Made by a program: the position numbers and the translations under genes. Below, in pieces: positions 16,750 through 61,731 of a DNA stretch of 64,000 bases. Below the pieces are notes generated by a model. It searched no databases, was not told where the DNA came from, and worked only from the letters and a program-made list of their open reading frames with translations. Source of the stretch: an uncultured Acidobacteriota bacterium (GTDB lineage: Bacteria; Acidobacteriota; Vicinamibacteria; Vicinamibacterales; UBA2999); NCBI GenBank assembly GCA_902826065.1, contig CADEDM010000006.1, forward strand, positions 836 to 64,835, read 5' to 3'. Position 1 is the stretch's first letter. Each line of letters starts with the position of its first letter.

Positions 16750-16753
<4 letters not shown>

Positions 16754-19629: not shown

Positions 19630-19644
19630 GCGGCTGAGTGAACG

Positions 19645-19682
19645 CGGAGAGAATTCCATTCTAGCGCTTGCAGCTAGGATGC
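19645..19682. promoter_or_regulatory. AT-rich divergent control region with two short inverted repeats
   Basis: AGAATtccATTCT and CTAGCgcttgcaGCTAG lie between the GT2 fusion gene and the phosphoesterase gene. The AT-rich island contrasts with the flanking GC-rich DNA. Confidence 0.35.
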
Positions 19683-19726
19683 CAACGTGTCGGGGCGGAT
19701 TATGCTTGCGCCCGCGAATGTCACGC

Positions 19727-21472
19727 ATGAAAGGCCGTTCTCATCCCCCGCCGGGTGTGTATTTCTTCACCGCCCTGGGTGGCGTGCTGCTCGCCGTGTG
19801 GGTAGCAGCCCAGCCGTCGCCATTGACGACGCTGTCGATCGTCGGCACCACCGACCTCCACGGCTACGTTTTCCCGCGCGACGGCGCCGGCGGCGTGGTG
19901 CTGCTCGGGGGCTATCTGGCGCGGCTGCGCGCCGCACGCCTCGCGGACCGCGGCGGCGTCGTACTGGTCGACGCCGGGGATACCTGGCTCGGCGGTGTCG
20001 AGGCCAACATGTCCGAGGGCGCGGTCGTCGTCGACGCCTACAACGCGCTCGGCTACACGGCCGCGGCGGTGGGCAATCACGACCTCGAGTTCGGCGCGGT
20101 CGACCCGTGGTGGGCGCGTCCCGGTGAACCGGCGGACCTGCGCGGCGCACTCAAGGCCCGAGCGCACCAGGCCCGCTTCCCGTTCCTCGCCGCCAACCTC
20201 GTCGACGTCGCGACCGGGCAGCCGGTGAACTGGCCGAACGTCCGCCGTTCGGCGCTGGTGGAGATCGCGGGCGTGCGCGTGGGCCTCGTCGGCGTGATGA
20301 CGCTCGACGCGTTGTCGATGACGCTGGCGCCGAACGTCGTCGGGCTGACGACCTCGCCTCTGGCGCCGGCGATCGAACACGAGGCGACGTCCCTCCGTGG
20401 CCGCGGCGCGCAGGTGGTGGTGGTCGTGGCGCATGCCGGCGGCTGGTGCAGCGGGTTCGCCGCGCCTGACGACGTATCGACGTGCGACGCGTCATCCGAG
20501 ATCTTCGAGGTCGCTCGCGCGCTTCCCGCCGGCCTCGTCGACGCGATCGCGGCCGGTCACACGCACGAGGCGATCGCGCACCGCGTCGCCGGGATTCCCA
20601 TCGCGCAGGCGTGGTCGTGGGGCCGCGCCTTCAGCCGCATCGACCTGCAGGTGGATCGCGCGACCGGCAGGGTCGCGGGGGCGCGGGTCTTCCCGCCGCA
20701 GGATCTCTGCGCGTGGCGCGACACCCGCACCGGCCGCTGCGCGCCGGCCCCGGGGCCCGACACCGCGGCCGCGGAGTACGAGGGCGGCGTGGTGACGCCG
20801 GACGCGGCGGTGACGCAGGCAATGGCGCCGGCACTCGCGCGCATCCGGGCCGTGCGCGACACGGTGCTCGGGCCGGCGCTGGACGCGCCGGTCGGGCGCG
20901 GGCCGGGGGACGGCGACTCGCCGCTGGGCAACGTGTTCGCCGACGCGATCCGGTCGGCGGTGCCTGGCGCCGCCGCGGCGCTGAGCTACGGCGCGGGCCC
21001 CGGCGGCTTGCGCGCCGACCTGCGCTCCGGTCCCGTGACCGTCGGCGCCGTCTACGACGCGTTTCCGTACGACAACCGCATCGAGGTTCGCCGCCTGACC
21101 GGCGCGGAGCTCACGCGTCTCGTCGGCGATCACATGGCGCGGCCGCGCTTCCGCTCGCGGGCGCTGGGCCTGTCGGGCCTGCGGGTGGCCGTCAGCTGCG
21201 TCGACGGACGCGACCACGTGACCTTGTCGAACGCCACCGGACAGGTGCTGCCGGACGACGTCCCCCTGGTCGTGGCGATGACGGACTTTCTCGGCAGTCG
21301 CGTACGGGCCTTGAAGCTCGGCGCCGAGGTGCCGCTGCCCGAGGCGCCGCTGTTGCGTGACGCGGCGGCGACGTGGATTCGCAGCCAGCGCGGCGCGGAC
21401 CTGACGGGCGTCACCGCGGCGCCGCGCTGGAGCCGCGCCCCCGGCGCGCCGGCGTCCTGCACCACGCCTTGA
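19727..21472 (+). CDS. secreted bifunctional metallophosphoesterase/5'-nucleotidase (UshA-like)
   Basis: Signal/anchor GVYFFTALGGVLLAVWVAA. Calcineurin-like motifs GTTDLHG, DAGDTWLGG, VGNHDLEFG, VVAHAG and AAGHTHE. A C-terminal 5'-nucleotidase substrate domain. ATG 19718 is an alternative start. Confidence 0.8.
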   Translation: MKGRSHPPPGVYFFTALGGVLLAVWVAAQPSPLTTLSIVGTTDLHGYVFPRDGAGGVVLLGGYLARLRAARLADRGGVVLVDAGDTWLGGVEANMSEGAVVVDAYNALGYTAAAVGNHDLEFGAVDPWWARPGEPADLRGALKARAHQARFPFLAANLVDVATGQPVNWPNVRRSALVEIAGVRVGLVGVMTLDALSMTLAPNVVGLTTSPLAPAIEHEATSLRGRGAQVVVVVAHAGGWCSGFAAPDDVSTCDASSEIFEVARALPAGLVDAIAAGHTHEAIAHRVAGIPIAQAWSWGRAFSRIDLQVDRATGRVAGARVFPPQDLCAWRDTRTGRCAPAPGPDTAAAEYEGGVVTPDAAVTQAMAPALARIRAVRDTVLGPALDAPVGRGPGDGDSPLGNVFADAIRSAVPGAAAALSYGAGPGGLRADLRSGPVTVGAVYDAFPYDNRIEVRRLTGAELTRLVGDHMARPRFRSRALGLSGLRVAVSCVDGRDHVTLSNATGQVLPDDVPLVVAMTDFLGSRVRALKLGAEVPLPEAPLLRDAAATWIRSQRGADLTGVTAAPRWSRAPGAPASCTTP

Positions 21473-30878: not shown

Positions 30879-31712
30879 GTGATTGCACGCGCGTTCACGG
30901 CGGCCCTGGCGGCCGCCGCTCTCTCTCTTGCCAGTGCGGCGCCGGCCGCGGCGCAGGTCGTCGGCACCTTCAGCTGGCAGACGCAGCCGTACTGCAACGT
31001 CATCACCGTCACCGTCATCCAGCAGGGCGCGGCGTTTCAACTGACGGGCCTCGACAACCAGTGCGGCGGCGCGGCGTCGCCCGTGACCGGCACGGCGATC
31101 TTCTCCGGCGGCACCGTGCAGATGGGGATCGCGGTCGCGCTGGCGAACGGACGGGCCGTGAACCTGTCCACGTCCATCAGCCTCGGCACGCTTTCGGGCA
31201 CGTGGACCGACGACGCCAGCCTGGCCGGCACGTTCGTGTTCAACGGCAGCGGCGCCGGCGGAGGCGTGCGTCCCGCGCCGTCGACCGTGCGCACCGACAC
31301 CTACTTCCCCCAGGCTGTCACCTGGGAACAGCCATCGCTCTTCGTCTCGTCGTTCATCAACGAGTGCGTCCACAACACCACCGCCAACTCCGTGTTCGCG
31401 TTGATTCCGATCATGATGCCGGCCGGCAGCCGGCTGCTCTCGGTCGACACCATGGTGCTCGACGGCGCCGGCCCGACCACCTACAGCGTCGCCGTCCGCA
31501 AGATCACCTACTCGCCCTCGGGCGTGAGCGGGGCGAACGTGTTCTCGAGTGGCACGCTCGGTGCCGGGTCCGGTTTCGTGCATGCCGTCTACACGCCGGC
31601 CACGCCAGAGATTTCCACCCCACAGACGAACTATTACGTCCGGGTCGGAGGTTTCGGCAACAGCGCCAACGGGTTCTGTTCCGTGACCGTGACCTACGAT
31701 CCCCATCCGTAG
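30879..31712 (+). CDS. secreted protein, paralogue 1 of a 3-member family with a conserved PYCNV/QCG N-terminal module
   Basis: GGAGGAG precedes GTG 30879. Signal peptide ends AAPAAAQ. N-module: FSWQTQPYCNVITVTV...LDNQCGG...LSGTWTD...GTFVFNG. The C-terminal domain is unique to this copy. Confidence 0.7.
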   Translation: MIARAFTAALAAAALSLASAAPAAAQVVGTFSWQTQPYCNVITVTVIQQGAAFQLTGLDNQCGGAASPVTGTAIFSGGTVQMGIAVALANGRAVNLSTSISLGTLSGTWTDDASLAGTFVFNGSGAGGGVRPAPSTVRTDTYFPQAVTWEQPSLFVSSFINECVHNTTANSVFALIPIMMPAGSRLLSVDTMVLDGAGPTTYSVAVRKITYSPSGVSGANVFSSGTLGAGSGFVHAVYTPATPEISTPQTNYYVRVGGFGNSANGFCSVTVTYDPHP

Positions 31713-39266: not shown

Positions 39267-40100
39267 ATGCCGTTCTCACGTTCGCTCGCGGCCTTGCTGC
39301 TCACGTTCACGGTCGCTCCCATTGCCGGGGCGCAGGTCATCGGCCCGCTGCGCTGGCAACTCGCGCCGTACTGCAACGTGGTGACGATCACGGTGACGCC
39401 CTCTGGCGGGCAGTACGGATTGCAGGGTGTCGACGACCAGTGCGGCGCCGGTGCGGCGCCGTCCGGCGTCATCGGCCTGGCCTACCCCATGCCCTCCGGC
39501 GACGTCGGCATGAGCCTGACCACGGTGCTGGCCCCGTCAGCCACGCCGGTGCACACCGACGTGACGCTGAGCCTCGCCACCCTGCACGGCACGTGGCGCG
39601 ACAGCGTCGGCAACAGCGGCACGTTCGTGTTCGCGCCCGGCGCGGTCGCCGGCGGCAAACGGCCGGTATCGCCGGCGGGTCTTCGCCCCGGTAGCGTCAC
39701 GGCGTCGCACCTCGCCACCAATGCCGTCGGCACTCTCAATCTCGCCAACGGCGCCGTGTCGGCCAGCAAGATCGCCAACGACGGCATCAACGACAGCACG
39801 CTCATCGCGCCCGGGACGATCGAGCTGAGCGACCTGAACCAGCAGCTCAGCGTGGGCACCAACAGCACGTGGTCGATCCCGGCCGGAGGCTGCGTGGCGC
39901 GCCAGACGACCTCGTTCACCGAGACCGTGCAGGAGGGCGACCTGCTGCTGGCGCGCATCCAGACCGGCCCGCCCGGCGTGTTCACGCTGGCGGCGGTGGC
40001 CGGCGCCGATGGCCGGTTCGGCTACGTCGTCTGCAACCCGACCAACGCCGCGATCGTCAGCACGGGCATCGCGCTGTCGCTCAAGCGCGTGCCGCGCTGA
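39267..40100 (+). CDS. secreted protein, paralogue 2 of the PYCNV/QCG family, with fibre-like repeats
   Basis: AGGAG RBS. Signal peptide ends PIAGAQ. N-module: LRWQLAPYCNVVTITV...VDDQCGA...LHGTWRD...GTFVFAP. Then about 10-residue repeats GSVTASHLATN/AVGTLNLANG/AVSASKIANDG. Confidence 0.75.
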   Translation: MPFSRSLAALLLTFTVAPIAGAQVIGPLRWQLAPYCNVVTITVTPSGGQYGLQGVDDQCGAGAAPSGVIGLAYPMPSGDVGMSLTTVLAPSATPVHTDVTLSLATLHGTWRDSVGNSGTFVFAPGAVAGGKRPVSPAGLRPGSVTASHLATNAVGTLNLANGAVSASKIANDGINDSTLIAPGTIELSDLNQQLSVGTNSTWSIPAGGCVARQTTSFTETVQEGDLLLARIQTGPPGVFTLAAVAGADGRFGYVVCNPTNAAIVSTGIALSLKRVPR

Positions 40101-43161: not shown

Positions 43162-44208
43162 ATGAGACAGCTGCCATTCGCCGTCGTGGTTGCCGTTGTC
43201 GCGGGTTCGTGGCTCGTAGGGCCGATCGGGGCACGGCAGTCGGCGCCCGCCGCCCAGCCAGGCGCCGCGGCGCCCGCCGGCTGGACGGTGCCGCGCACCG
43301 CCGACGGCAAGCCCGACCTGCAGGGCGTCTGGGGCAACAACAGCGTGACGCCCATGACGCGCCCGACGCAGTGGAAGGACAAGGTGTCGCTCACGGACGC
43401 CGAGGTCAACGAGCTGAAGCAGTACGCGCAGCAGTTCGTCGATCAGGGGGGCGATGCCATCTTCGGCAACTTCGTCCAGCAGATGCTCGACGCGAAGGAC
43501 AAGGGCGCCTTCAAGCAGGTGTCGTACGACCCGACCACCGGCAACTACAACCAGTTCTGGATGGCCGATCGTGAGTGGGACAATCGCTCCTCGCTCATCG
43601 TCGACCCGCCCGAGGGCCAGTTCCCGCCGATGACGCCGGCCGGCATCGCCCGCCGCGACGCGCGCCTGGCCGCCGCGAAGGCCAGCACGCGCGGTCCGTC
43701 AGACGGCCCCGAGGACCGCCCGCTTTCGGAGCGCTGCATCTCCTACGGCGCGCCGCGCATCGGCGCCAACTACAACAGCTACGTCCAGATCCTGCAGTCG
43801 CCGAAGACCGTGGTGCTGATGCAGGAGATGATTCACGACGCGCGCGTGGTCGACATGACCGGCACGGCGCACCTGCCGAAGACCATCCGCCAGCTCCACG
43901 GCGACCCCCGCGGCCGCTGGGAGGGCGACACGCTGGTCGTCGAGACGACCAACTACGTCAACGGCTTCCAGGGCTCGACCAACGACGTCACGCTCACCGA
44001 GCGCTATACGCGGGTGAGCCCGGACTTCATCGAGTGGAAGGTCACGGTCGACGACCCCGCCACGTGGACCACGCCGTACACGTTCATGATCCGGCTGAAG
44101 AAGACCGACGGCCTGATCTACGAGTACGCCTGCCACGAAGGCAACTACGCCATGACCGGCATCCTCGCGGGTGCGCGCCGCGAAGAGAAGGCCGGCGGCA
44201 AGCGCTAG
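43162..44208 (+). CDS. secreted protein, larger paralogue of the 41811..42641 lipoprotein family
   Basis: Signal peptide MRQLPFAVVVAVVAGSWLVGPIGA. Family motifs: PDLQGVWG, CISYGAPR, GRWEGDTLVVETT, VTLTERYT, VDDPATW, YEYACHEGN. Confidence 0.75.
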   Translation: MRQLPFAVVVAVVAGSWLVGPIGARQSAPAAQPGAAAPAGWTVPRTADGKPDLQGVWGNNSVTPMTRPTQWKDKVSLTDAEVNELKQYAQQFVDQGGDAIFGNFVQQMLDAKDKGAFKQVSYDPTTGNYNQFWMADREWDNRSSLIVDPPEGQFPPMTPAGIARRDARLAAAKASTRGPSDGPEDRPLSERCISYGAPRIGANYNSYVQILQSPKTVVLMQEMIHDARVVDMTGTAHLPKTIRQLHGDPRGRWEGDTLVVETTNYVNGFQGSTNDVTLTERYTRVSPDFIEWKVTVDDPATWTTPYTFMIRLKKTDGLIYEYACHEGNYAMTGILAGARREEKAGGKR

Positions 44209-45686
44209 GCGGCGACGATCTGCGGCACCAGCGTGCCGTAGACGTCGGTCAGCCGCATGTCGCGGCCGTTGAACCGGTAGGTCAGCTTCGTGTGGTCGAG
44301 TCCGAGCAGGTGCAGCACCGTGGCGTGCAGGTCGTGGTACGAGATCGGCTGCTCGAGCGCCTTGTACCCGAAGTCGTCGCTCGCGCCGATCACCTGCCCG
44401 CCCTTGATGCCGGCGCCGGCCATCAGCACCGTCTGCGTCCCCGGATTGTGATCGCGTCCGACGCCGCGCTGTGAGATCGGCATGCGCCCGAACTCGGAGT
44501 GCATGATCACGAGCGTCGAATCGAGCAGTCCGCGCGCCTTCAGGTCGCGCAGCAGCGCCGCAGCCGGCCGGTCGGTCTCGGCTGCGTGCTGCGTGTGGTT
44601 CGCCTTCACGTCGCCGTGCGCGTCCCAGGTGTCGACGTTCTGGTTGCCGACGCCGCCCGAGTAGATCTGCACGAAGCGCACCCCACGTTCCACCAGTCGC
44701 CGCGCCATCAGGCACTGCCGCCCGAACGGCTCGGTGACCTTCTCGTCGAGCCCGTAGAGCGCGCGCGTCGCGTCCGACTCCCCGGCGAGGTCGATGGCGC
44801 TCGGCGCGCAGCCCTGCATGCGGTAGGCGAGCTCGTATGACGAGATGCGCGCCGCCAGCTCCGAGTTGCCCGGGTATTTCTGCATGTCGAGTTCGTTGAG
44901 CTTCGCCAGCGTGTCGAGGCGCAGCCGCTGGTCCTCGGCCGAGATGCCGGCCGGCGGCTTGAGGTCGACGATGGGATCACCGGTCGAGCGGAACAGCGTG
45001 CCCTGGAAGGCCGCGGGCATGTAGCCGGCGCTCCAGTCGTTGGGCCCGCCCAGCGGTCCGCCGCGCGCGTCGGTCATCACGACGTAGGCCGGCAGGCTCG
45101 ACGACACCGAGCCCAGCCCGTAGGTGACCCAGGCGCCGACGCTCGGGAAGCCCAGGTTGATCTGGCCCGTCTGCATCTCGTAGGTGCCCTGCACGTGGTC
45201 GTTCGAACGGCCGTAGACCGAGCGCAGGAACGCGATCTCGTCGACGTGCTGGCTGAGGAACGGGAAGATCTCCGAGATCTCGATGCCGCTCTGGCCGTGC
45301 TGCTTGAACGCGAACGGGCTGGGCATCAGCGGGCCGGGCGAGCCCTGGCGCACGATGACGTCGCCCTTCACCTTGTCGTCGATCGGCTGGCCGGCGTACT
45401 TCATCAGCGCCGGCTTCGGATCGAAGGTGTCCATCTGGCTCCAGCCGCCGCCCATGAACAGGGAGATCACGCTGGTGGCGCGCGGCGCGAAGTGCGGCGC
45501 CCTGGGCGCGTACGGATTCGATCCGACGGCGGCGGCGCTGCACGCGTCCTGCTGCGCCAGGGCGGTCGTCGACAGCAGCCCCTCGCGATCGAGCAGCCAG
45601 GCGAGCGCGAGGCCGCTGATGCCGCCGCCCGACGAGAACAGGAACTCGCGCCGATCCCAGAAGTTCTTGCTGCAGCGGTGCGACAC
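44205..45686 (-). CDS. DUF1501-family TAT-exported sulfatase-fold protein
   Basis: WDRREFLFSSGGGISGLALAWLL twin-arginine signal. Sulfatase-like core (MGGGWSQMDTFDPKP, HSEFGR). Lies directly downstream of a PSD1 gene. Confidence 0.85.
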   Translation of the reverse strand: MSHRCSKNFWDRREFLFSSGGGISGLALAWLLDREGLLSTTALAQQDACSAAAVGSNPYAPRAPHFAPRATSVISLFMGGGWSQMDTFDPKPALMKYAGQPIDDKVKGDVIVRQGSPGPLMPSPFAFKQHGQSGIEISEIFPFLSQHVDEIAFLRSVYGRSNDHVQGTYEMQTGQINLGFPSVGAWVTYGLGSVSSSLPAYVVMTDARGGPLGGPNDWSAGYMPAAFQGTLFRSTGDPIVDLKPPAGISAEDQRLRLDTLAKLNELDMQKYPGNSELAARISSYELAYRMQGCAPSAIDLAGESDATRALYGLDEKVTEPFGRQCLMARRLVERGVRFVQIYSGGVGNQNVDTWDAHGDVKANHTQHAAETDRPAAALLRDLKARGLLDSTLVIMHSEFGRMPISQRGVGRDHNPGTQTVLMAGAGIKGGQVIGASDDFGYKALEQPISYHDLHATVLHLLGLDHTKLTYRFNGRDMRLTDVYGTLVPQIVAA

Positions 45687-45689
45687 GGC

Positions 45690-48389
45690 TCACCTCAGGT
45701 AGAGGAACTCGTCGAGATTCAGCAGCACGTGCGTGAACGCCGCGAGCGACTGCCGGCGCACGAGGAAGCGGGCCACGTCGCGCTCCGCCGCCACCGGCCC
45801 TCGTCCGAGGGCGATGCGATACGCGAGATCGATCTGGGCGTCGGGTTCGCCGGAAACCGCGGCGACGCGCGCCGCCAGGCGGTCGGCCTGCGCCAGGACG
45901 AACGGGTTGTTGAGCAGCGTCAGCGCCTGCGTCGGCACCGTCGAGACGTTGCGCGCGCCGGCGACGACGTTCATGTCGGGATGGTCGAAGGTGTCGAACA
46001 TCGGATAGGGCAGGGAACGGCGGCGGTAGACGTAGACGCCACGCCGCCACGCCGCCGGCCCCTCGGGCGTGTTCTCCCACTTGCCGCGGAACTGCCCCTG
46101 GAGGATGTCCTTCGGCATGAACGGGAAGATCGGCTCGCCGCCCACCGCCCGGTTCAGGTTGCCGCCGGCGACCAGCATGCTGTCGCGCACGATCTCGGCC
46201 TCGAGCCGCTGCGGACGGAAGCGCCACAGGTAGCGGTTCTCGGGATCGCGGGTCGCGTTGTCGTCGCTCGCGAAGCTCGAGGCCATCTGGTAGGCCTCCG
46301 ACAACATCATCTCCTTCTGGATCGGCTTCAGCCGCCAGCCCTGGTTCACGAGTTCGATCGCCAGCCAGTCGAGCAACTGCGGATGCGTGGGCGTGTCGCC
46401 CATCTTCCCGAAGTTCTCGAGTGTGCTGACGATGCCGCGGCCGAAGTGCTTCTGCCACAGGCGATTCACGATCACCCGCGCCGTGAGCGGATGGTCCGGC
46501 GAGGTGATCCACTTCGCCAGCGCCAGGCGACGGCCGGAGGTGCGGCCGTCGGGTCGCGGAATCGCGGTGGGCGGCGTGCCGGCCGTCGCCACGCCGACGA
46601 AGCCCGGCGCCATCTGCGGCCCGTGGCTCTCGACGTCGCCGCGGATCAGGAAGTACGACGGCGGCGTCTCGTAGCGCCCCGGGCCCTTGTGCAGGTAGCT
46701 GCCCGGGAATGGCGGCGGGATACGGCACTTCGGGCAACTGACGACCTCGTCGCCTTCGCCGAGCGGCGAGAAGCGATGGTCGCCGTCGGTGACGATCTCG
46801 GCCATCGGCAGCGGCGCTGGTCGTGCCTTCTCGACCGCGGCGAGGTCCGCGAGCAGGCCCTTTTTCGCGGCGAGGTCGCCGGGTGACAACGCCGCGTCGA
46901 TCTGCGCGGCCGGCGCGTTCACCGCCTCGAACACCTGGATGGCGAGCAACCGCTCGCCAGGCGTGCGGTCGGCCTCGGGTTTTGCCGCGGCTTGATAGAT
47001 CGCGTCGGGGAAGCGTGCCTTGATCAAGGCCAGCTCGATGCGGTCGCGCTGCGGCTTCTCGATGGCCGCGATCTTCGTGCGCAATGCATCACGCCGTGCG
47101 TTCAGCGCTTCCTGCGTCGCGAGGTAGGCGTCGGCCTCCGCCGGCGGCGCCAGCGGCACCTCGGTCTCGACGTAGCCGAAGATCGACGCCTGCAGGGCGT
47201 AGTAGTCCTTCTGCCGGATCGGATCGAACTTGTGGTCATGGCAGCGTGCACAGCCGACCGTGAGCCCCATCGTGCCCTTGCCGATGGCGCTCAGCACGTC
47301 GTCCAGGTAGTCGAAGCGGCGCTCCGGGTTGTCCTTCTCGCGGAACAGGACGCGCGGGCCGGCGCGCAGGAACCCGGTGGCGATCAGGCTGTCGAACGTG
47401 CGGTCGTCGACTTCGTCACCGGCGATCTGCTCGGTCAGGAAGACGTCGTACGGCTTGTCGTCGTTGAAGGCGCGGATGACGTAGTCGCGATAGCGCCACG
47501 CATTCGGGCGGTGCACGTCGTACTCGAACCCGCCCGAGTCCGCGTAGCGGGCCACGTCGAGCCAATGGCGGCCGTAGCGCTCGCCGTAGTGCGGTGAGGC
47601 GAGCAACTGATCGACGAGCCGCTCCCAGGCATCGGGCCGATCGTCGGCGACGAAGCGATCGACTTCGTCGGGCGAAGGCGGCAGACCGAGAAGATCGAGA
47701 TACGCCCGCCGCACCAGCGTGGCCCGGTCGGCACGCGGCGCCGCCCGCAGGCCTCGCGCCGATCGCTCGGCGTCGAGGAAGCGATCGATGACGCTGGTCA
47801 GGCCCGCCCGTGCGGGCGCCGGCGGCACCGTCTGCACCGGCCGCGTGAACGCCCAGCGTCCACGCTCCTCGGCGGTGAGCGGCCGCTCTTCGATTTCGGC
47901 GCTGGCGGCCGCGGCGGCGGCGGCGGTGGTGGCGGCTGCGGCCAGTCCCGCGGGCCAGGTGGCGCCGCCGTCGATCCAGCGCTTCATCGCCGCGACCTCG
48001 GCCGGCGTCAGCGGCGCGCCGCGCATCGGCATCGCCGGGACGTCGAGGCCGGCGGCCAGGCGGTACATCCGGCTCTGCTCGGCATTGCCGGGCACCAGCG
48101 CGGGCCCCTTCGCGCCGCCGTCGATCGCGGCCTCGCGCGTGCGCAGGTCGAGTTTCGAGAGCCTCAGCTTCTCGCCGTGGCAGCCCAGGCACTTGCCCAC
48201 GAGCAGGGCGTGGATCTCCGGATCGGCGGGGACCGGGGCCTGGGCCGAGAGCGCCGGAAGAACGGCCGAGAGACGAATCAGGGCGAGGCCGCCGAGGGCC
48301 AGACCGAGCGGAGCCGAGGCGACCAACCGTCGTGGCACTCCACACCTCCGTCCGAGGTTCGCGGGCCGGGCAGATCGAAGCGGGCTCAC
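45690..48389 (-). CDS. PSD1/PSCyt-type protein (planctomycete cytochrome c domain + DUF1549 + DUF1553)
   Basis: CLGCHGEKLRLSKLDLRT N-terminal CxxCH and a second GCARCHDHKFDP. Size and order are typical of DUF1549/DUF1553 proteins. The start is uncertain (GTG at 48389). Confidence 0.8.
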   Translation of the reverse strand: MSPLRSARPANLGRRCGVPRRLVASAPLGLALGGLALIRLSAVLPALSAQAPVPADPEIHALLVGKCLGCHGEKLRLSKLDLRTREAAIDGGAKGPALVPGNAEQSRMYRLAAGLDVPAMPMRGAPLTPAEVAAMKRWIDGGATWPAGLAAAATTAAAAAAASAEIEERPLTAEERGRWAFTRPVQTVPPAPARAGLTSVIDRFLDAERSARGLRAAPRADRATLVRRAYLDLLGLPPSPDEVDRFVADDRPDAWERLVDQLLASPHYGERYGRHWLDVARYADSGGFEYDVHRPNAWRYRDYVIRAFNDDKPYDVFLTEQIAGDEVDDRTFDSLIATGFLRAGPRVLFREKDNPERRFDYLDDVLSAIGKGTMGLTVGCARCHDHKFDPIRQKDYYALQASIFGYVETEVPLAPPAEADAYLATQEALNARRDALRTKIAAIEKPQRDRIELALIKARFPDAIYQAAAKPEADRTPGERLLAIQVFEAVNAPAAQIDAALSPGDLAAKKGLLADLAAVEKARPAPLPMAEIVTDGDHRFSPLGEGDEVVSCPKCRIPPPFPGSYLHKGPGRYETPPSYFLIRGDVESHGPQMAPGFVGVATAGTPPTAIPRPDGRTSGRRLALAKWITSPDHPLTARVIVNRLWQKHFGRGIVSTLENFGKMGDTPTHPQLLDWLAIELVNQGWRLKPIQKEMMLSEAYQMASSFASDDNATRDPENRYLWRFRPQRLEAEIVRDSMLVAGGNLNRAVGGEPIFPFMPKDILQGQFRGKWENTPEGPAAWRRGVYVYRRRSLPYPMFDTFDHPDMNVVAGARNVSTVPTQALTLLNNPFVLAQADRLAARVAAVSGEPDAQIDLAYRIALGRGPVAAERDVARFLVRRQSLAAFTHVLLNLDEFLYLR

Positions 48390-48483: not shown

Positions 48484-49485
48484 TCAGTGCAGTCGGGCCA
48501 CGTAGAAGCCCGTGACCGCCCCGTCGCTCGCAGTGAACGATGCGCCGGTGTTGTTCAGAATGCGAACACCGACGACGTCGCCGGCGGCCAGCGCGAGGAC
48601 GGCCGTCGCCGACTGCGACTCGAACACCGCCGCCGCGTCCTGGCACTCGCCGACTTCCGCCACGCCGTTGAGAAAGATGACCACGCAGCGATTCCCGGGC
48701 GCACCGCCGTTGGGCAGGAGTCCGACCGCCGCCGACACCATGTACGTGCCCGCCGACGGTACGGAGTACTCGCCCGTCGCGGGGTCGTAGCTGCCGCCGC
48801 CGACGTTGGTCAGGGACCCCCAGCCGGTGATCGATGTCGTACCAGGGCCGAGGGTCTGATCGGCCAGCGACGCCGATCTGAAGCGGACGTCGGCGCGGAT
48901 CGGCACGCAGGTCACGCCGCCGCTGGTGAGCACGGCGCTGATGGCGGAGCCGGCGCCGCACGCGCCCGAGACACGAAGCTGCACCTGGCTGGCGAGGACT
49001 TCGGTGGCGCCCACGGATCCCCCTGCGAGTTCGACCTGCGTGATCGTGCCTGGGGCCACGCTGCTCGGCGGCAGCGGACGCACCGGCAGGCCGGCAACGG
49101 TCTGGAAGAAGGCGAACGTGCCGCCGTGCCCGATGCTGTCGAGCCACGTGCCATGACCAGTGGCCGGACTCACGACCGCCGACACGTGCACGGCCTTCGC
49201 CCACGGCGTCACGATGCTGAAGTTCATCGTGAAGCTGCCGTCGGCGTTCGGCGAGGCGATGCCGACCACGCTCGCCTTTTTGACTGCACCGCATTGATCT
49301 TCGGTGCCGTCGAGTCTGAACCCGGCCGGCGTGTTGGTCAGGGTCAGCGTGACGACGTTGCAGTAGGGCAGCATCTGCCACGGCACGGGGCCCAGGATGG
49401 TCTGCGCAGCGGCGTCGCGGCCCGCGCAGATTACCAACAGCACCAAGCCGAGCCGTGCTGACGTCACCGTGCAGAATCTGGCCAT
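48484..49485 (-). CDS. secreted protein, paralogue 3 of the PYCNV/QCG family, with C-terminal C1q/TNF-like globular domain
   Basis: GGAGGAG RBS. Signal peptide ends RDAAAQ. N-module: VPWQMLPYCNVVTLTL...TEDQCGA...GHGTWLD...GTFAFF. The C-terminus aligns by eye with C1q heads (YDPATGEYSVPSAGTYMVSA, LALAAGDVVGVRI, VTGFYVARL). Confidence 0.75.
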   Translation of the reverse strand: MARFCTVTSARLGLVLLVICAGRDAAAQTILGPVPWQMLPYCNVVTLTLTNTPAGFRLDGTEDQCGAVKKASVVGIASPNADGSFTMNFSIVTPWAKAVHVSAVVSPATGHGTWLDSIGHGGTFAFFQTVAGLPVRPLPPSSVAPGTITQVELAGGSVGATEVLASQVQLRVSGACGAGSAISAVLTSGGVTCVPIRADVRFRSASLADQTLGPGTTSITGWGSLTNVGGGSYDPATGEYSVPSAGTYMVSAAVGLLPNGGAPGNRCVVIFLNGVAEVGECQDAAAVFESQSATAVLALAAGDVVGVRILNNTGASFTASDGAVTGFYVARLH

Positions 49486-49612
49486 GACTCCTCCAGTCGG
49501 GATCCGAAGCGTCCAGAGTGTACGCGTGCCGGCTGACTGACCCCGCCAGCTCGCCGCTACCGGCGAGGACAGGTGGCGAGGCGAGGCAGGTCCGGCGCCC
49601 GATGCGGAGACG

Positions 49613-49624: not shown

Positions 49625-51304
49625 ATGCGCCTGCTCGTTCTCGCGCTTGCGGCTGCGCTCTCGGGCCAGGGCGGTCGCCCGGCCGGTCCGCTGATCGTCG
49701 TGATCGACGGCGACAGCGCTGTCGCGGCGCCGGAAGACACGGCGCGGCGACGCGTGGCGCTGCTCGAACAACTGGACCCCGGCGCCGTCGCGAAGTACTA
49801 CGAGCTCACCGCCAGTGGCATCCACCCGGTGGCACCCACCGACGCGGCGTCGTTCCGCCGCACCGTGTTCACCGTGACGCCGCCGAGCTACTCGGGCGTG
49901 AAGGTCACGTTCTCCGAGAGCACCGAGATCCTGCGTGGCAACGAGGCGGTGCGCGAGGCCGTCATCGCGCGCGAGTGCTCGAGCGGCTGCGGCGGGCGCG
50001 TGCGCGCGGCGGTCGAGGCCGAGGTCAAGCGCACCGAGGGAGAGAGTGCCCGCAAGCTCCAGCATCTCGCCGCGCAGGCGACGTCGTGGCGCGGAGCCCG
50101 GGTGGTCCTGGTGACCTCCGGATGGCCGACGCGTGACGAGGCCCGCGTGCGTCTCGACCGCGCGCTCGCGCCGCTGCGTGAGCACGCCGTGTCGCTGACC
50201 GTCGTGCACGTGCCGTCACGCGAGCCCTATCGGGGCCTCGTGCGTGATGCCAGCGAGAGCCTGGCGGCCCGGCTGCCGGCGCGCTACGCGACGCTGGCCG
50301 GCGACGCCGACGTGTCCGCGGCGGCGACCCTCGTCGGCGTCGCCTCTCCGGCGCAGACGACCGCCGCGATCACGACGTCCGCGGGAGCATCAGCGTCCTT
50401 CGCCCTTGGAGCGACGCCTGGTCCGGAGAGTCCCGCGCAGGCCGTCGGGCCATCGACATCGCCGGCGGCCGACCCACCGGTCGCTGCGCCGGCCAACGAC
50501 GACGCGACGCTGCGCCGGGCCGCCGCCTACGTCGCCCGCTTCGAGCGGACGTTCACCGAAGTGGTCTGGCACGAGCGGTACGAGCAGGAAGTGCGCGTGT
50601 GGCAACGGTTCTCGAGTTCCGGCGAGACGCGATGGAACCTCGACGGCCGTCGCACGCTGGAGTCAGAGCTCTACTTCGCGTGGCTGCCGAAGGACGGGAC
50701 GTGGATCGCGGTGCGCGATGTGATGGCGGTCGACGGCAAGGCGCGGCCGGCCGGCGACCGCCGCCTGGCCGCCCTGGCGGCGCGCGGCTCCGTGTCCGTG
50801 CTGGAGCTGCGGGAGTTGGCGCGCGAGAACGGACGCTTCAACATCGGCACCATCGTCCGCACGTTCAACGAGCCCACGCTGGCGCTGCTGTTCCTCACCG
50901 AACGCCACCGTGCCCGCGTGGCGTGGTCGCGCAAGGGCCAGCGGCGCGCCGACGGGCGCGTCGTGGCGACGTATGCGTTCACCGAGCAGGGACGTCCGAC
51001 GCTGATTCGCAGCGGCGACCGCGACATGCCCGTGCGCGGGACGTTCGACCTCGACAGCGCCACCGGCGAAGTGCTGGCCAGCACCATCGAGTTATCCGAA
51101 CCGCTGGCCATCGGCGAAGCCCTGCCGACCCTCACCGGACGGATGGCCGTGGACTACCGGCCGCACGTCGCGTTCGACGTGCTGGTGCCGGGCGAGATGC
51201 GAGAGTCCTACAGTGCCCACCGCTCGGAAGAGGTGACCGCGACGGCCATCTATTCGGACTTCCGGCGCTTCTGGACGACGGCCCGCCTGATCCTGACCCC
51301 GTAG
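49625..51304 (+). CDS. secreted two-domain protein of unknown function (degenerate VWA-like N-domain, A/P/S/T linker, unknown C-domain)
   Basis: Signal peptide MRLLVLALAAALSG. Strand pattern LIVVIDGDSAV ... RVVLVTSGWPTRDE ... SLTVVHV. A low-complexity linker near residues 235-290. The C-domain is rich in W/Y/E/R. Confidence 0.6.
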   Translation: MRLLVLALAAALSGQGGRPAGPLIVVIDGDSAVAAPEDTARRRVALLEQLDPGAVAKYYELTASGIHPVAPTDAASFRRTVFTVTPPSYSGVKVTFSESTEILRGNEAVREAVIARECSSGCGGRVRAAVEAEVKRTEGESARKLQHLAAQATSWRGARVVLVTSGWPTRDEARVRLDRALAPLREHAVSLTVVHVPSREPYRGLVRDASESLAARLPARYATLAGDADVSAAATLVGVASPAQTTAAITTSAGASASFALGATPGPESPAQAVGPSTSPAADPPVAAPANDDATLRRAAAYVARFERTFTEVVWHERYEQEVRVWQRFSSSGETRWNLDGRRTLESELYFAWLPKDGTWIAVRDVMAVDGKARPAGDRRLAALAARGSVSVLELRELARENGRFNIGTIVRTFNEPTLALLFLTERHRARVAWSRKGQRRADGRVVATYAFTEQGRPTLIRSGDRDMPVRGTFDLDSATGEVLASTIELSEPLAIGEALPTLTGRMAVDYRPHVAFDVLVPGEMRESYSAHRSEEVTATAIYSDFRRFWTTARLILTP

Positions 51305-60678: not shown

Positions 60679-61731
60679 ATGAGCACGTCGACGCCTCACC
60701 GCCTGACGCGGCTGCGCCATGCGTCCGACCACGTCCCCGGGATCGCGCGCGTAGCCCTGCGCAGTGGCCGCGCCACGTACCGGCGGCCCGACGGCAGCGT
60801 GGTGCGCGATCGCCGCGAATTGGATCGCATTCGCGCGCTGGCCATTCCGCCGGCGTGGAAGGACGTCTGGATCTCGCCCTGGCCCAACGGGCACATCCAG
60901 GCCACGGGACGCGACGCCCGCGGCCGCAAGCAGCATCGCTATCACGCGTCGTGGACCGCCAGGCGTGACGACGCGAAGTACGCGCGGCTGGTGGAGTTCG
61001 GCCGCGCCCTGCCGCGCCTTCGCCGGCGCGTGAGCCGCGACCTGCGCGCCCCGGGCCTCTCACATCGCAAGGTGGTCGCGCTCGTCGCCCGCCTGCTCGA
61101 TGTGTCGCTGATTCGCGTGGGCAACGACGAATACGCCCGCGACAACCACTCGTTCGGGTTGACGACGCTGCGCGATCGCCACGTCACGGTGCGGGGGCGC
61201 ACGGTGCGGTTCAAGTTCGCCGGCAAGAGCGGCAAGACCCACGACATCGAGGTCAACGACCGGCGCCTGGCGCGGCTGGTGAAGCAGTGCCAGGAGCTGC
61301 CGGGCAGCCGCCTGTTCCAGTATGTCGACGACGACGGACGCGTCTGCGACCTCACGTCGTCGGATGTCAACGACTACCTCCGCGGCGTCATGGGCGAGGC
61401 GTTCACGGCGAAGGACTTCCGCACGTGGGCCGGCACGGTCCTGGCCGCCCGTGCGCTGACGGAGACGGCGCACGACCCCGAACACGAACCAACAAGGCAG
61501 GATGTCGTTCGCGCCGTCGACACGGTGGCGCAGGCGCTCGGCAACACGCGGGCGATTTCGCGCAAGAGCTACATTCACCCGGTCGTCATCGATGCCTACC
61601 TCGGAGGCACGCTGGCCTCGTCGCTCAAGGTGCGACCGAGGGGTGGCCACGTCGCACGGCGGCGGATCGAGACCGCGGTGCTCGCGCTGCTGCAGCGTCG
61701 CCGCGGCGCCACGACCAGGCGCGCGGCCTGA
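60679..61731 (+). CDS. type IB DNA topoisomerase (bacterial/poxvirus-like)
   Basis: LAIPPAWKDVWISPWPNGHIQATGRDARGRKQHRYH hallmark, DFRTWAGT, and C-terminal SRKSYIHP with the catalytic Tyr. Confidence 0.9.
   Translation: MSTSTPHRLTRLRHASDHVPGIARVALRSGRATYRRPDGSVVRDRRELDRIRALAIPPAWKDVWISPWPNGHIQATGRDARGRKQHRYHASWTARRDDAKYARLVEFGRALPRLRRRVSRDLRAPGLSHRKVVALVARLLDVSLIRVGNDEYARDNHSFGLTTLRDRHVTVRGRTVRFKFAGKSGKTHDIEVNDRRLARLVKQCQELPGSRLFQYVDDDGRVCDLTSSDVNDYLRGVMGEAFTAKDFRTWAGTVLAARALTETAHDPEHEPTRQDVVRAVDTVAQALGNTRAISRKSYIHPVVIDAYLGGTLASSLKVRPRGGHVARRRIETAVLALLQRRRGATTRRAA

What the first reader, a model, noticed from the sequence alone, without database searches (positions are those of the whole stretch)
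48487..48894. C1q/TNF-like globular head on a bacterial secreted protein (paralogue 3)
The last ~135 residues align by eye with metazoan C1q heads such as adiponectin. RFRSASL matches RSAFSVGL. GSYDPATGEYSVPSAGTYMVSAAV matches NHYDGSTGKFHCNIPGLYYFAYHI. VVIFLNGVAEV matches VSLFKKDKAML. SATAVLALAAGDVVGVRI matches ASGSVLLHLEVGDQVWLQV. AVTGFYVARL matches STFTGFLLY. C1q-like jelly-roll heads are trimeric recognition modules. In bacteria they are rare (the BclA-type exosporium fibres are the example I know). Here the head sits on the family-specific N-module plus a short fibre-like stretch, which supports the idea that the family is a set of trimeric binding proteins with exchangeable heads.
Basis: partly seen in the sequence, partly recalled or inferred. 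Interest (0 to 1): 0.65.

Follow-up and report, generated by a model that had tools for sequence, protein, structure and literature searches.

The report
Bacterial secreted protein with C1q-type head
A soil/wastewater acidobacterium encodes a secreted three-part protein whose last ~135 residues really are a complement-C1q-type jelly-roll knob. It belongs to a large, unannotated, lineage-specific family that keeps one small N-terminal barrel and swaps the head, and its function is still untested.

Summary
Window 48487-49485 (-) encodes a 333-aa protein. Its C-terminus matches Pfam C1q above the curated cut-off and folds as a confident jelly-roll. That fold superposes on C1QL, Caprin-2 and C1q heads at TM 0.75-0.82. 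A profile of 15 related heads hits C1q structures at E=1e-13.

In front of the head are a signal peptide and a conserved 110-aa module. AlphaFold2 models that module (pLDDT 93.5) as an eight-stranded avidin-like barrel with no family assignment. A proline-rich hinge and a short stalk with a cysteine loop follow.

The N-module defines more than 1000 protein clusters. In genomes it was found almost only in Vicinamibacterales/Acidobacteriota, many copies per genome and often in tandem arrays. Its C-terminal partners vary: S74 chaperone, YadA-head repeats, C1q/BclA_C, collagen, Lcl_C, DUF7452. Most of these are known from trimeric fibres.

The two other paralogues in the window carry unrelated heads. 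So "one base, exchangeable heads" is supported, while trimerisation, ligand and location remain inferred.

C1q/TNF-like knobs on bacterial and phage fibres are already known (BclA, F-BclA, eCIS fibres, mycobacteriophage tail proteins). I therefore rate this a new architectural variant of a known kind, of moderate interest.

The parts
48484..49485 (-). Whole gene (paralogue 3): 333-aa precursor plus stop codon
   Evidence: ORF and translation. The start is fixed by the GGAGGAG RBS at 49489-49495 and by a 99%-identical 333-aa database protein, P0001. GC3 is 0.87, like neighbouring genes.
49405..49485 (-). Sec-type signal peptide, aa 1-27 (MARFCTVTSARLGLVLLVICAGRDAAA|Q)
   Evidence: It has a basic n-region, a hydrophobic core and an A-x-A site. 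In 47+144 homologues the conserved module starts at about residue 24-27, right after ..A-x-A-Q. The Cys at position 20 is not conserved and is not in a lipobox. This is read from the sequence; no signal-peptide predictor was run.
49075..49404 (-). Family-defining N-module, aa 28-137: eight-stranded up-and-down beta-barrel with invariant Cys42/Cys65, the WQxxPYCN motif, and a GLPxRP end
   Evidence: AF2 model pLDDT 93.5, pTM 0.83, eight strands. Only weak fold matches to avidin/streptavidin/bradavidin (TM 0.55-0.65, E>=0.05). No Pfam, NCBIfam, PHROG or PADLOC family. The profile finds 1009 cluster representatives.
48907..49074 (-). Pro-rich hinge plus short stalk, aa 138-193, ending in a Cys176-Cys193 loop (QLRVSGACGAGSAISAVLTSGGVTC)
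   Evidence: Residues 143-169 have pLDDT below 50 in the monomer model. The motif Q.R[VIL].G.C..G...C occurs in 30 of 145 family representatives. The equivalent, longer repeat stalk of paralogue 2 matches phage tail-fibre family phrog_892 at E=4e-7.
48487..48906 (-). C1q-type globular head, aa 194-333 (Pfam match aa 226-318), with the Cys267/Cys281 pair
   Evidence: Pfam C1q above cut-off. Block pLDDT 77-94 (all but one block 84 or higher) with 10+ strands. Foldseek TM 0.75-0.82 to C1QL1/3, Caprin-2 C1q and C1q chain C. Head profile vs PDB E=1.4e-13.
39267..40100 (+). Paralogue 2 (277 aa): same signal peptide and N-module, 11-residue-repeat stalk, small unrelated C-terminal domain
   Evidence: tblastn 40% identity over 153 aa, E=4e-27. 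Translation. N-module HMM 149.8 bits. No similarity of its head to the C1q head. Stalk hits phrog_892.
30879..31712 (+). Paralogue 1 (about 277 aa from GTG 30879): same signal peptide and N-module, no stalk, unrelated ~140-aa C-terminal domain
   Evidence: tblastn 37% identity over 110 aa, E=3e-14. Translation. N-module HMM 133.1 bits. No Pfam family. No similarity to the C1q head.

Best explanation
The gene encodes a Sec-exported, disulfide-containing, three-part binding protein. (1) After signal-peptide cleavage, the mature N-terminus is a compact eight-stranded beta-barrel that is the constant part of a large Vicinamibacterales-specific family. I infer that it is the shared base that docks every family member to one common partner or site in the cell envelope or matrix. 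(2) A proline-rich hinge and a short stalk with a Cys-bridged loop act as a spacer and probably as the trimerisation neck. (3) The C-terminal gC1q-type jelly-roll assembles, like all characterised C1q/TNF/BclA heads, into a trimeric knob whose exposed loops bind a ligand, most likely a glycan or another surface polymer. Paralogues carry other heads on the same base, so a cell has a repertoire of binding specificities. The logic matches phage receptor-binding proteins, eCIS tail fibres and Bacillus BclA-type fibrils: conserved attachment end, variable distal knob. Shown: domain boundaries, the C1q fold, the N-barrel fold, family size and taxonomy, head exchange, native codon usage, non-phage context. 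Inferred: secretion route beyond Sec, trimer state, docking role of the barrel, ligand.
For: - C1q family membership of the head by sequence and by predicted fold.
- A signal peptide followed immediately by the conserved module in essentially all homologues.
- Three conserved Cys pairs, one per module. This is typical of exported proteins.
- The N-module is modelled with very high confidence as a self-contained barrel. It is always N-terminal in proteins of 133-1531 aa.
- The C-terminal partners are dominated by modules known from trimeric fibres: S74 intramolecular chaperone 26, YadA_head 12, C1q 6, BclA_C 2, collagen 3, Lcl_C 2, out of 144.
- Other stalk types are fused to the same head type (P0193, P0194).
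- The base is conserved and the head diverges: mean identity among orthologues is 65% for the N-module, 47% for the stalk and 37% for the head.
- The low-confidence stalk in the monomer model is what one expects of a segment that folds only in an oligomer.
- The stalk and head share profiles with phage tail-fibre and minor-tail families. Solved phage receptor-binding and spike proteins (TM4 gp23, phi812 spike knob, cyanophage A4) are among the top structural matches.
- The published analogous architecture in eCIS fibres pairs a conserved N-terminal attachment domain with C1q or S74 ends (PMC12923769).
- Trimeric C1q-like tips are displayed on Bacillus ENA fibres with presumed adhesive roles (PMC12357932).
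Against: - No oligomer prediction or experiment exists, and trimerisation is not demonstrated.
- A Sec signal only reaches the periplasm of a diderm. No secretion system, anchor or partner gene is linked to the gene in the window or in four other loci with C1q-type heads.
- Paralogue 1 has no stalk at all, so not every member need be a fibre.
- The N-barrel resembles ligand-binding calycins/avidins only weakly. That would also fit a small-molecule-binding role rather than a docking role.
- No transcript evidence was found.
- No ligand can be deduced. The apex residues used by C1QL/C1q for Ca2+ are not conserved across the head alignment (my reading).
Confidence: 0.55

Rival explanations
1. It is a freely secreted soluble lectin/agglutinin or bacteriocin-like protein. 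The C1q head targets other cells or polymers. The N-terminal barrel is the active or cargo-binding part (for example a calycin/avidin-like small-ligand binder) rather than an anchor.
For: The N-module has the avidin/calycin topology. The mature N-terminus is free, with no lipobox, TM helix or sorting motif. The genes are solitary, without partner genes. Soluble bacterial TNF-like lectins exist (listed: PMC12914763).
Against: Fold matches to avidins are not significant (E>=0.05) and there is no Pfam avidin hit. Family partners such as the S74 chaperone, YadA-head repeats and collagen are typical of fibres attached to a particle or cell. The base is more conserved than the head, which fits a common docking partner.
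Confidence: 0.22
2. It is a periplasmic or envelope-internal protein. The signal peptide takes it only across the inner membrane, and the C1q-like head binds a periplasmic polymer such as peptidoglycan or a glycan intermediate.
For: Only a Sec-type signal is visible and no outer-membrane export system is linked. In about a third of related loci the family sits beside an ECF sigma factor and a Ser/Thr kinase, a kind of regulator pair I associate, from general knowledge not checked here, with envelope signalling.
Against: Family members up to several hundred residues carry YadA-head repeats, collagen and self-cleaving S74 chaperones. These are modules known from extracellular fibres.
Confidence: 0.1
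3. It is a tail fibre or receptor-binding protein of a prophage, tailocin or eCIS, or a remnant of one.
For: There are PHROG hits: phrog_15750 at E=2e-10 and phrog_737 minor tail protein at E=1e-3 for the head, and phrog_892 tail fibre for the paralogue 2 stalk. Phage receptor-binding proteins are among the top structural matches. eCIS fibres carry C1q and S74 ends.
Against: Every family member has a cleavable signal peptide, which virion and eCIS fibres lack. Nothing in the 64-kb window was identified as a phage or eCIS gene; the annotated genes are katG, thyA, PNP, permeases, PSCyt/DUF1501, MacB and topoisomerase IB, and several ORFs have no family. tblastn of the head against 50,697 phage genomes finds nothing. 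The N-module has no viral structural match. Codon usage is native.
Confidence: 0.05
4. The N-terminal eight-stranded barrel is an integral outer-membrane anchor of the OmpX/OmpA type that displays the stalk and head on the surface, as a kind of inverse autotransporter.
For: It has eight antiparallel strands with alternating hydrophobic and polar residues. YadA-head repeats occur in family members.
Against: The module is only 110 aa, and four of its strands are just 5-8 residues long, too short to span a membrane. The best structural matches are soluble avidins and designed soluble barrels, not outer-membrane proteins. It carries an invariant disulfide and charged loops.
Confidence: 0.05
5. The C1q resemblance is a chance or compositional artefact of a Gly/Ala/Val-rich high-GC protein.
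For: The single-sequence PDB E-values are modest at 0.005-0.06.
Against: The Pfam score is above the curated cut-off. The family profile reaches E=1.4e-13 against C1q. The independent fold prediction matches gC1q at TM about 0.8 with 321 PDB hits at E<=1e-3, the 50 listed being C1q/TNF-type proteins plus three phage tail or spike proteins.
Confidence: 0.01

Closest known systems
Metazoan gC1q domains (C1QL1-3, C1q A/B/C heads, EMILIN-1, Caprin-2; Pfam PF00386)
   Same: The sequence family is the same, with a score above the Pfam cut-off and profile E=1e-13. The jelly-roll is the same (TM 0.75-0.82). The core motif N-x-GGG-x-[YF]-x4-G-x-[YF]-x-V-P-x2-G-x-Y ... AGD-x-V ... F-x-V-x-R-L corresponds to the C1q signature. 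The head is C-terminal to a stalk.
   Different: There is no collagen Gly-X-Y stalk in this protein. There is a one-residue insertion in the signature and an extra Cys267-Cys281 pair. The gene is bacterial, with native high-GC codon usage. The C1QL/C1q Ca2+-site residues are not conserved in the family alignment (my reading). Identity to the structures is only 17-24%.
Bacillus BclA / F-BclA / L-BclA collagen-like fibrils with C1q/TNF-like C-terminal domains (PF18573; PMC12357932)
   Same: These are bacterial extracellular fibres with a conserved N-terminal docking element, a spacer and a trimeric TNF/C1q-like distal knob with a presumed adhesive role. Two of 144 family representatives match BclA_C and three carry collagen repeats.
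   Different: This head scores only 15.8-19.4 bits on BclA_C against a cut-off of 38. There is no collagen stalk and no exosporium leader or ENA hook. The organism is a diderm acidobacterium, not a spore former. The N-terminal base is a folded barrel rather than a short peptide.
eCIS tail fibres with eBAP2 N-terminal baseplate-attachment domain and C1q or Peptidase_S74 C-termini (PMC12923769)
   Same: The design rule is the same: a conserved N-terminal attachment domain combined with shuffled C-terminal receptor-binding modules. The same pair of modules, C1q and S74, occurs, and there are often several fibre genes per locus.
   Different: These proteins have signal peptides, are not in eCIS operons, and their N-module is an avidin-like barrel with no viral or eCIS structural match.
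Phage proteins with C-terminal C1q/TNF-like domains: receptor-binding and spike proteins (TM4 gp23 9n6a, phi812 central spike knob 9eul) and a chain of the cyanophage A4 portal-tail complex (9k09); PHROG 737
   Same: They are equally strong structural matches to the head (E about 1e-7). There is a weak profile match to the C-terminus of the minor tail protein family.
   Different: There is no sequence match in 50,697 phage genomes. The gene is a cellular, Sec-exported gene in a housekeeping neighbourhood.
Avidin/streptavidin/bradavidin barrels (calycin-like), compared with the N-module only
   Same: Both are eight-stranded up-and-down antiparallel barrels of about 110-120 residues.
   Different: E-values are 0.05 or worse, TM is 0.55-0.65, identity is 12-18%, and there is no Pfam avidin hit. 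This is a topological resemblance only.

Membership tests
C1q domain (Pfam PF00386, C1q/TNF superfamily) | Profile score above the curated gathering threshold | tested here: met
   27.7 bits for the whole protein and 30.6 bits for the head alone, against a cut-off of 23.7. The head-family profile hits C1q structures at E=1.4e-13.
C1q domain (Pfam PF00386, C1q/TNF superfamily) | Compact ten-strand jelly-roll beta-sandwich | tested here: met
   In the AF2 model, the 10-residue blocks over aa 200-333 have mean pLDDT 77-94 (all but one 84 or higher) and are all-beta. Foldseek gives TM 0.75-0.82 and rmsd 2.5-3.5 A to C1QL1/3, Caprin-2 C1q and C1q chain C. This is a prediction, not an experimental structure.
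C1q domain (Pfam PF00386, C1q/TNF superfamily) | Conserved aromatic/glycine core signature (F-x5-[ND]-x4-[FYWL]-x6-F-x5-G-x-Y-x-F, recalled from PROSITE) | tested here: inconclusive
   The sequence reads N227-x5-Y-x6-Y-x5-G-x-Y-x-V. The order and most residues are kept, with one extra residue after N and F->Y/V replacements. The signature text is from memory, not from a tool.
C1q domain (Pfam PF00386, C1q/TNF superfamily) | Assembly into a trimeric head | not testable with these tools
   Only monomer prediction was available. The trimer is inferred from the family and from co-occurring trimeric modules.
Classical C1q/CTRP architecture | Collagen-like Gly-X-Y stalk N-terminal to the head | tested here: not met
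   There is no Collagen hit in this protein. The stalk is a 56-residue non-collagen segment. Three of 144 family representatives do carry collagen repeats.
BclA_C (Pfam PF18573) | Profile score above the gathering threshold | tested here: not met
   15.8-19.4 bits against a cut-off of 38.
Phage / eCIS tail fibre | No signal peptide; encoded within a tail or eCIS gene cluster; N-terminal baseplate-attachment domain | tested here: not met
   A signal peptide is present. Neighbours are housekeeping genes. There is no phage genome match. The N-module has no viral fold match.
Trimeric autotransporter adhesins | C-terminal YadA-type membrane anchor | tested here: not met
   No anchor domain was found in this protein or in the family census. 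Only YadA_head repeats occur, in 12 of 144 members.
Avidin family (N-module only) | Profile match and significant structural match | tested here: not met
   There is no Pfam hit at E<=10. The best Foldseek E-values are 0.06 (PDB) and 0.048 (BFVD).

The most novel reading that the evidence does not exclude
The WQxxPYCN barrel family could be a previously undescribed, Vicinamibacterales-specific cellular system for displaying interchangeable trimeric binding heads, in effect a chromosomal repertoire of 'receptor-binding proteins without a phage'. In this reading the avidin-like barrel is a universal plug for one envelope or matrix socket. The heads (C1q, S74-processed YadA-like, collagen/Lcl, DUF7452 and several unclassified folds) are shuffled between paralogues. 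Arrays of these genes are switched by adjacent ECF-sigma/Ser-Thr-kinase pairs. Together these would shape adhesion and floc or biofilm partner choice in soil and activated sludge.
Probability: 0.3. Interest if true: 0.6.

Novelty: new variant of a known kind. Interest (0 to 1): 0.42.

Why it matters
Vicinamibacteria are abundant soil and wastewater bacteria that are hardly studied experimentally. Almost nothing is known about their cell-surface biology.

This locus points to a family of more than 1000 sequence clusters that no domain database names. The family combines one constant, well-folded base with many different heads, most of them of trimeric-fibre type.

If the base is a docking plug, the family would be a cellular counterpart of phage and eCIS receptor-binding cassettes. 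It would also be a natural scaffold for displaying binding modules.

The finding adds a clear, deep-branching bacterial lineage of gC1q domains with native codon usage. That is relevant to the debate on whether bacterial C1q domains are recent acquisitions from animals (PMC12923769).

On its own, a C1q-type knob on a bacterial protein is not surprising any more.

Tried and rejected
- **Head-only homologue search.** A search with the single head sequence returned nothing, not even the 99%-identical P0001. I treat this as a limit of the word index, not as absence. The head profile then found five further proteins.
- **Phage genomes.** tblastn of the head against phage genomes gave no match.
- **Profile comparison of heads.** The C1q-head alignment was compared with the heads of paralogues 1 and 2 and of the common 298-aa form. 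None showed similarity (probabilities below 1%).
- **Family libraries.** NCBIfam and PADLOC gave no family for any paralogue.
- **Promoter and terminator scan around the gene.** Nothing was found, which is uninformative at 71% GC.
- **Neighbourhood comparison.** Four other loci with C1q-type heads share no conserved neighbour. There is no synteny between the window and any GTDB locus.
- **RNA-seq runs.** None was available.
- **Literature.** A search for C1q plus Acidobacteria found nothing relevant.
- **Lipoprotein reading of Cys20.** Rejected. The residue before it is Ile, and the Cys is absent from the orthologues.
- **Recent transfer from an animal.** Rejected. The head's GC3 of 0.876 equals that of the rest of the gene and its neighbours. 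The head lineage is itself diverse within Acidobacteriota (24-60% identity).
Full report
**1. What is at the coordinates**

The finding's range, 48487-48894 on the minus strand, is the 3' end of an ORF whose real coding sequence is 48487-49485 (333 aa). The start is supported by a GGAGGAG ribosome-binding site three bases upstream of the ATG at 49485. It is also supported by a 99%-identical 333-aa database protein (P0001).

The gene has the composition of its surroundings: GC 0.69 and GC3 0.87, with GC3 0.876 for the head alone. For comparison, GC3 is 0.90 in the adjacent gene and 0.94 in katG.

**2. Is the C1q resemblance real?**

Yes.
- Pfam C1q (PF00386) scores 27.7 bits for the whole protein and 30.6 bits for the last 134 residues. 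The curated cut-off is 23.7. BclA_C scores 15.8-19.4 bits, below its cut-off of 38.
- phmmer against all PDB sequences returns only C1q-family chains (C1QL2 at E=0.005, C1QL1/3, EMILIN-1, C1q C chain).
- A profile of 15 related bacterial heads (alignment A4) hits single-chain C1q heads at E=1.4e-13, EMILIN-1 gC1q at 7.5e-8 and C1QL3 at 8.5e-8.
- An AlphaFold2 model built on 17 homologues is all-beta from residue ~200 to the end. The 10-residue blocks there have mean pLDDT 77-94, and all but one are 84 or higher.
- Foldseek against the PDB gives 321 hits at E<=1e-3. The 50 listed are led by C1QL1/3, Caprin-2 C1q, C1q chain C, EDA, 4-1BBL, TWEAK and APRIL, with TM 0.75-0.82 for the gC1q domains. 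Three phage structures score equally well: the TM4 gp23 receptor-binding domain, the phi812 central spike knob, and a chain of the cyanophage A4 portal-tail complex.

**3. Anatomy of the whole protein**

- **Residues 1-27** form a Sec-type signal peptide ending A-A-A|Q. In the 47 close and 144 distant homologues the conserved module begins at about residue 24-27, directly after an A-x-A-Q site.
- **Residues 28-137** are the family-defining module. It carries the WQxxPYCN motif, invariant Cys42 and Cys65, and a GLPxRP end. Modelled alone it gives pLDDT 93.5 and pTM 0.83 as an eight-stranded up-and-down barrel. Its only structural neighbours are avidin/streptavidin/bradavidin and designed soluble barrels, at non-significant E-values (0.05 or worse, TM 0.55-0.65) in both the PDB and the viral library. 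No Pfam, NCBIfam, PHROG or PADLOC model covers it.
- **Residues 138-193** are a proline-rich hinge and a short stalk that ends in a Cys176-Cys193 loop. Most of this segment has pLDDT below 50 in the monomer model. The same Cys-loop motif occurs in 30 of 145 family representatives.
- **Residues 194-333** are the C1q head, with a further Cys pair (267/281) that most related heads share.

**4. The family**

The N-module profile finds 1009 representatives of 50%-identity clusters at E<=1e-3, and 860 at E<=1e-10. The module is always at the N-terminus, in proteins of 133-1531 aa.

A Pfam census of 144 of them gives Peptidase_S74 26, YadA_head 12, C1q 6, BclA_C 2, collagen 3, Lcl_C 2 and DUF7452 3 (examples). 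From established knowledge, the S74 intramolecular chaperone, collagen repeats, YadA-head repeats, C1q/BclA heads and the Legionella Lcl protein are all known from trimeric fibres.

The C1q head also occurs behind a different stalk type in P0193 and P0194.

In one genome per species (GTDB), 150 matches were confirmed. The 80 kept are nearly all Vicinamibacterales/Acidobacteriota MAGs, with several copies per genome. Many loci hold tandem arrays of two to five genes. Only four of these loci carry the C1q-type head. Note that the scan pattern was WQ[ML][QLA]PYCN, so more divergent members were not sampled.

Among orthologues of the window protein, the base is more conserved than the head. Mean identity is 65% for the N-module, 47% for the stalk and 37% for the head.

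**5. The window's three paralogues**

- Paralogue 2 (39267-40100, +) has the same base, a stalk of 11-residue repeats that matches phage tail-fibre family phrog_892 (E=4e-7), and a small unrelated head.
- Paralogue 1 (30879-31712, +) has the base followed directly by an unrelated ~140-residue domain.
- The common 298-aa form found elsewhere also has an unrelated head.

The three genes lie about 9 kb apart. The genes annotated around them are housekeeping genes: katG, thyA, purine-nucleoside phosphorylase, permeases, an amine oxidase, a PSCyt1/PSCyt2/PSD1-DUF1501 pair, a MacB-type permease and topoisomerase IB. None was identified as a phage, eCIS or secretion-system gene, though several ORFs have no family and not every ORF in the window was scanned.

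The contig type is found in wastewater metagenomes. No RNA data were available.

**6. Mechanism**

The best-supported reading is a Sec-exported modular binding protein. Its constant N-terminal barrel is the shared base, and its C-terminal gC1q knob, presumably trimeric, is the ligand-binding end. Paralogues offer other heads on the same base.

This copies the logic of phage receptor-binding proteins and of eCIS fibres. In eCIS fibres, a conserved N-terminal attachment domain is combined with C1q or S74 ends (PMC12923769). It also copies the logic of Bacillus BclA/F-BclA fibrils, which display trimeric C1q-like tips (PMC12357932).

The steps that are inferred rather than shown are trimerisation, passage across the outer membrane, the docking role of the barrel, and the ligand.

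The rivals, with their evidence, are given in the Rival explanations section. They are a free soluble lectin or bacteriocin-like protein with a ligand-binding barrel, a periplasmic protein, a phage/eCIS fibre, an integral-membrane barrel anchor, and chance similarity. The phage and chance readings are effectively excluded.

**7. Comparison with what is known, and novelty**

The head is a member of the C1q domain family by sequence and predicted fold. It is not a BclA_C member by score. It lacks the collagen stalk of classical C1q/CTRP proteins.

C1q/TNF-like knobs on bacterial and phage fibres are documented, so the head alone is a new member of a known kind.

What does not appear in the libraries or papers searched is the architecture: signal peptide, avidin-like barrel, then variable stalk and head. 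Also unreported are its large, lineage-restricted expansion and its frequent tandem arrays next to ECF-sigma/Ser-Thr-kinase pairs.

I therefore rate it a new variant of a known kind, with moderate interest (0.42). The function remains untested.

Noticed in passing
L002 4942-14172; L004 3256-11393; also L009, L028, L039, L052, L055, L057, L065, L069, L075, L083 and others: In many Vicinamibacterales loci, the N-module genes form same-strand tandem arrays of 2-5, mostly the YadA_head + S74 type. These arrays sit directly beside an ECF sigma factor (PF07638) and a ~900-aa Ser/Thr protein kinase. tblastn finds the sigma factor in 28 and the kinase in 33 of 84 fetched loci (a few are duplicate copies of one region); neither is in the window.
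   Followed up: partly
window 44205-48389 (-): A PSCyt1/PSCyt2/PSD1 (DUF1549/DUF1553) protein of 899 aa and a DUF1501 protein of 493 aa lie immediately downstream of the C1q-head gene on the same strand. The gap is 94 nt and no terminator was detected. Co-transcription is possible but was not tested, and the pairing is not conserved in other loci with C1q-type heads.
   Followed up: partly
window 49625-51304 (+): A 559-aa ORF with no Pfam family is transcribed divergently from the C1q-head gene, with a 139-nt intergenic region. The same arrangement is seen in the short Logan contig L001.
   Followed up: no
P0048 (1531 aa): This database protein is two complete family genes read through as one. 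Each has a signal peptide, N-module, 11-residue-repeat stalk, YadA-like repeats and an S74 chaperone. It is probably a frameshift or assembly join between tandem paralogues.
   Followed up: no
L011, L014, L043, L061, L081 (GTDB records CAZJBN01, CAYUAX01, CAZZGM01): MAGs titled 'uncultured Bifidobacteriaceae bacterium' carry N-module genes 47-61% identical to the query alignment. The taxonomic labels of these bins look wrong, or the bins are contaminated.
   Followed up: no
window 30879-31712 (+): Paralogue 1 has no stalk. A ~140-residue Cys-containing domain with no detectable family follows the barrel directly, so not all family members need be fibre-like.
   Followed up: partly
window 16750-19728 (-): A 992-aa ORF combines a glycoside hydrolase family 2 TIM-barrel domain with a family 2 glycosyltransferase domain. 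This is an unusual fusion.
   Followed up: no
window 60679-61731 (+): A bacterial type IB topoisomerase (Topoisom_I catalytic core plus Top1B_N_bact), which is sporadic in bacteria.
   Followed up: no
(tool behaviour): The single-sequence homologue search with the 141-aa head returned no hit at all, although a 99%-identical protein (P0001) is in the same database. Negative results from that tool with short queries should not be read as absence.
   Followed up: partly
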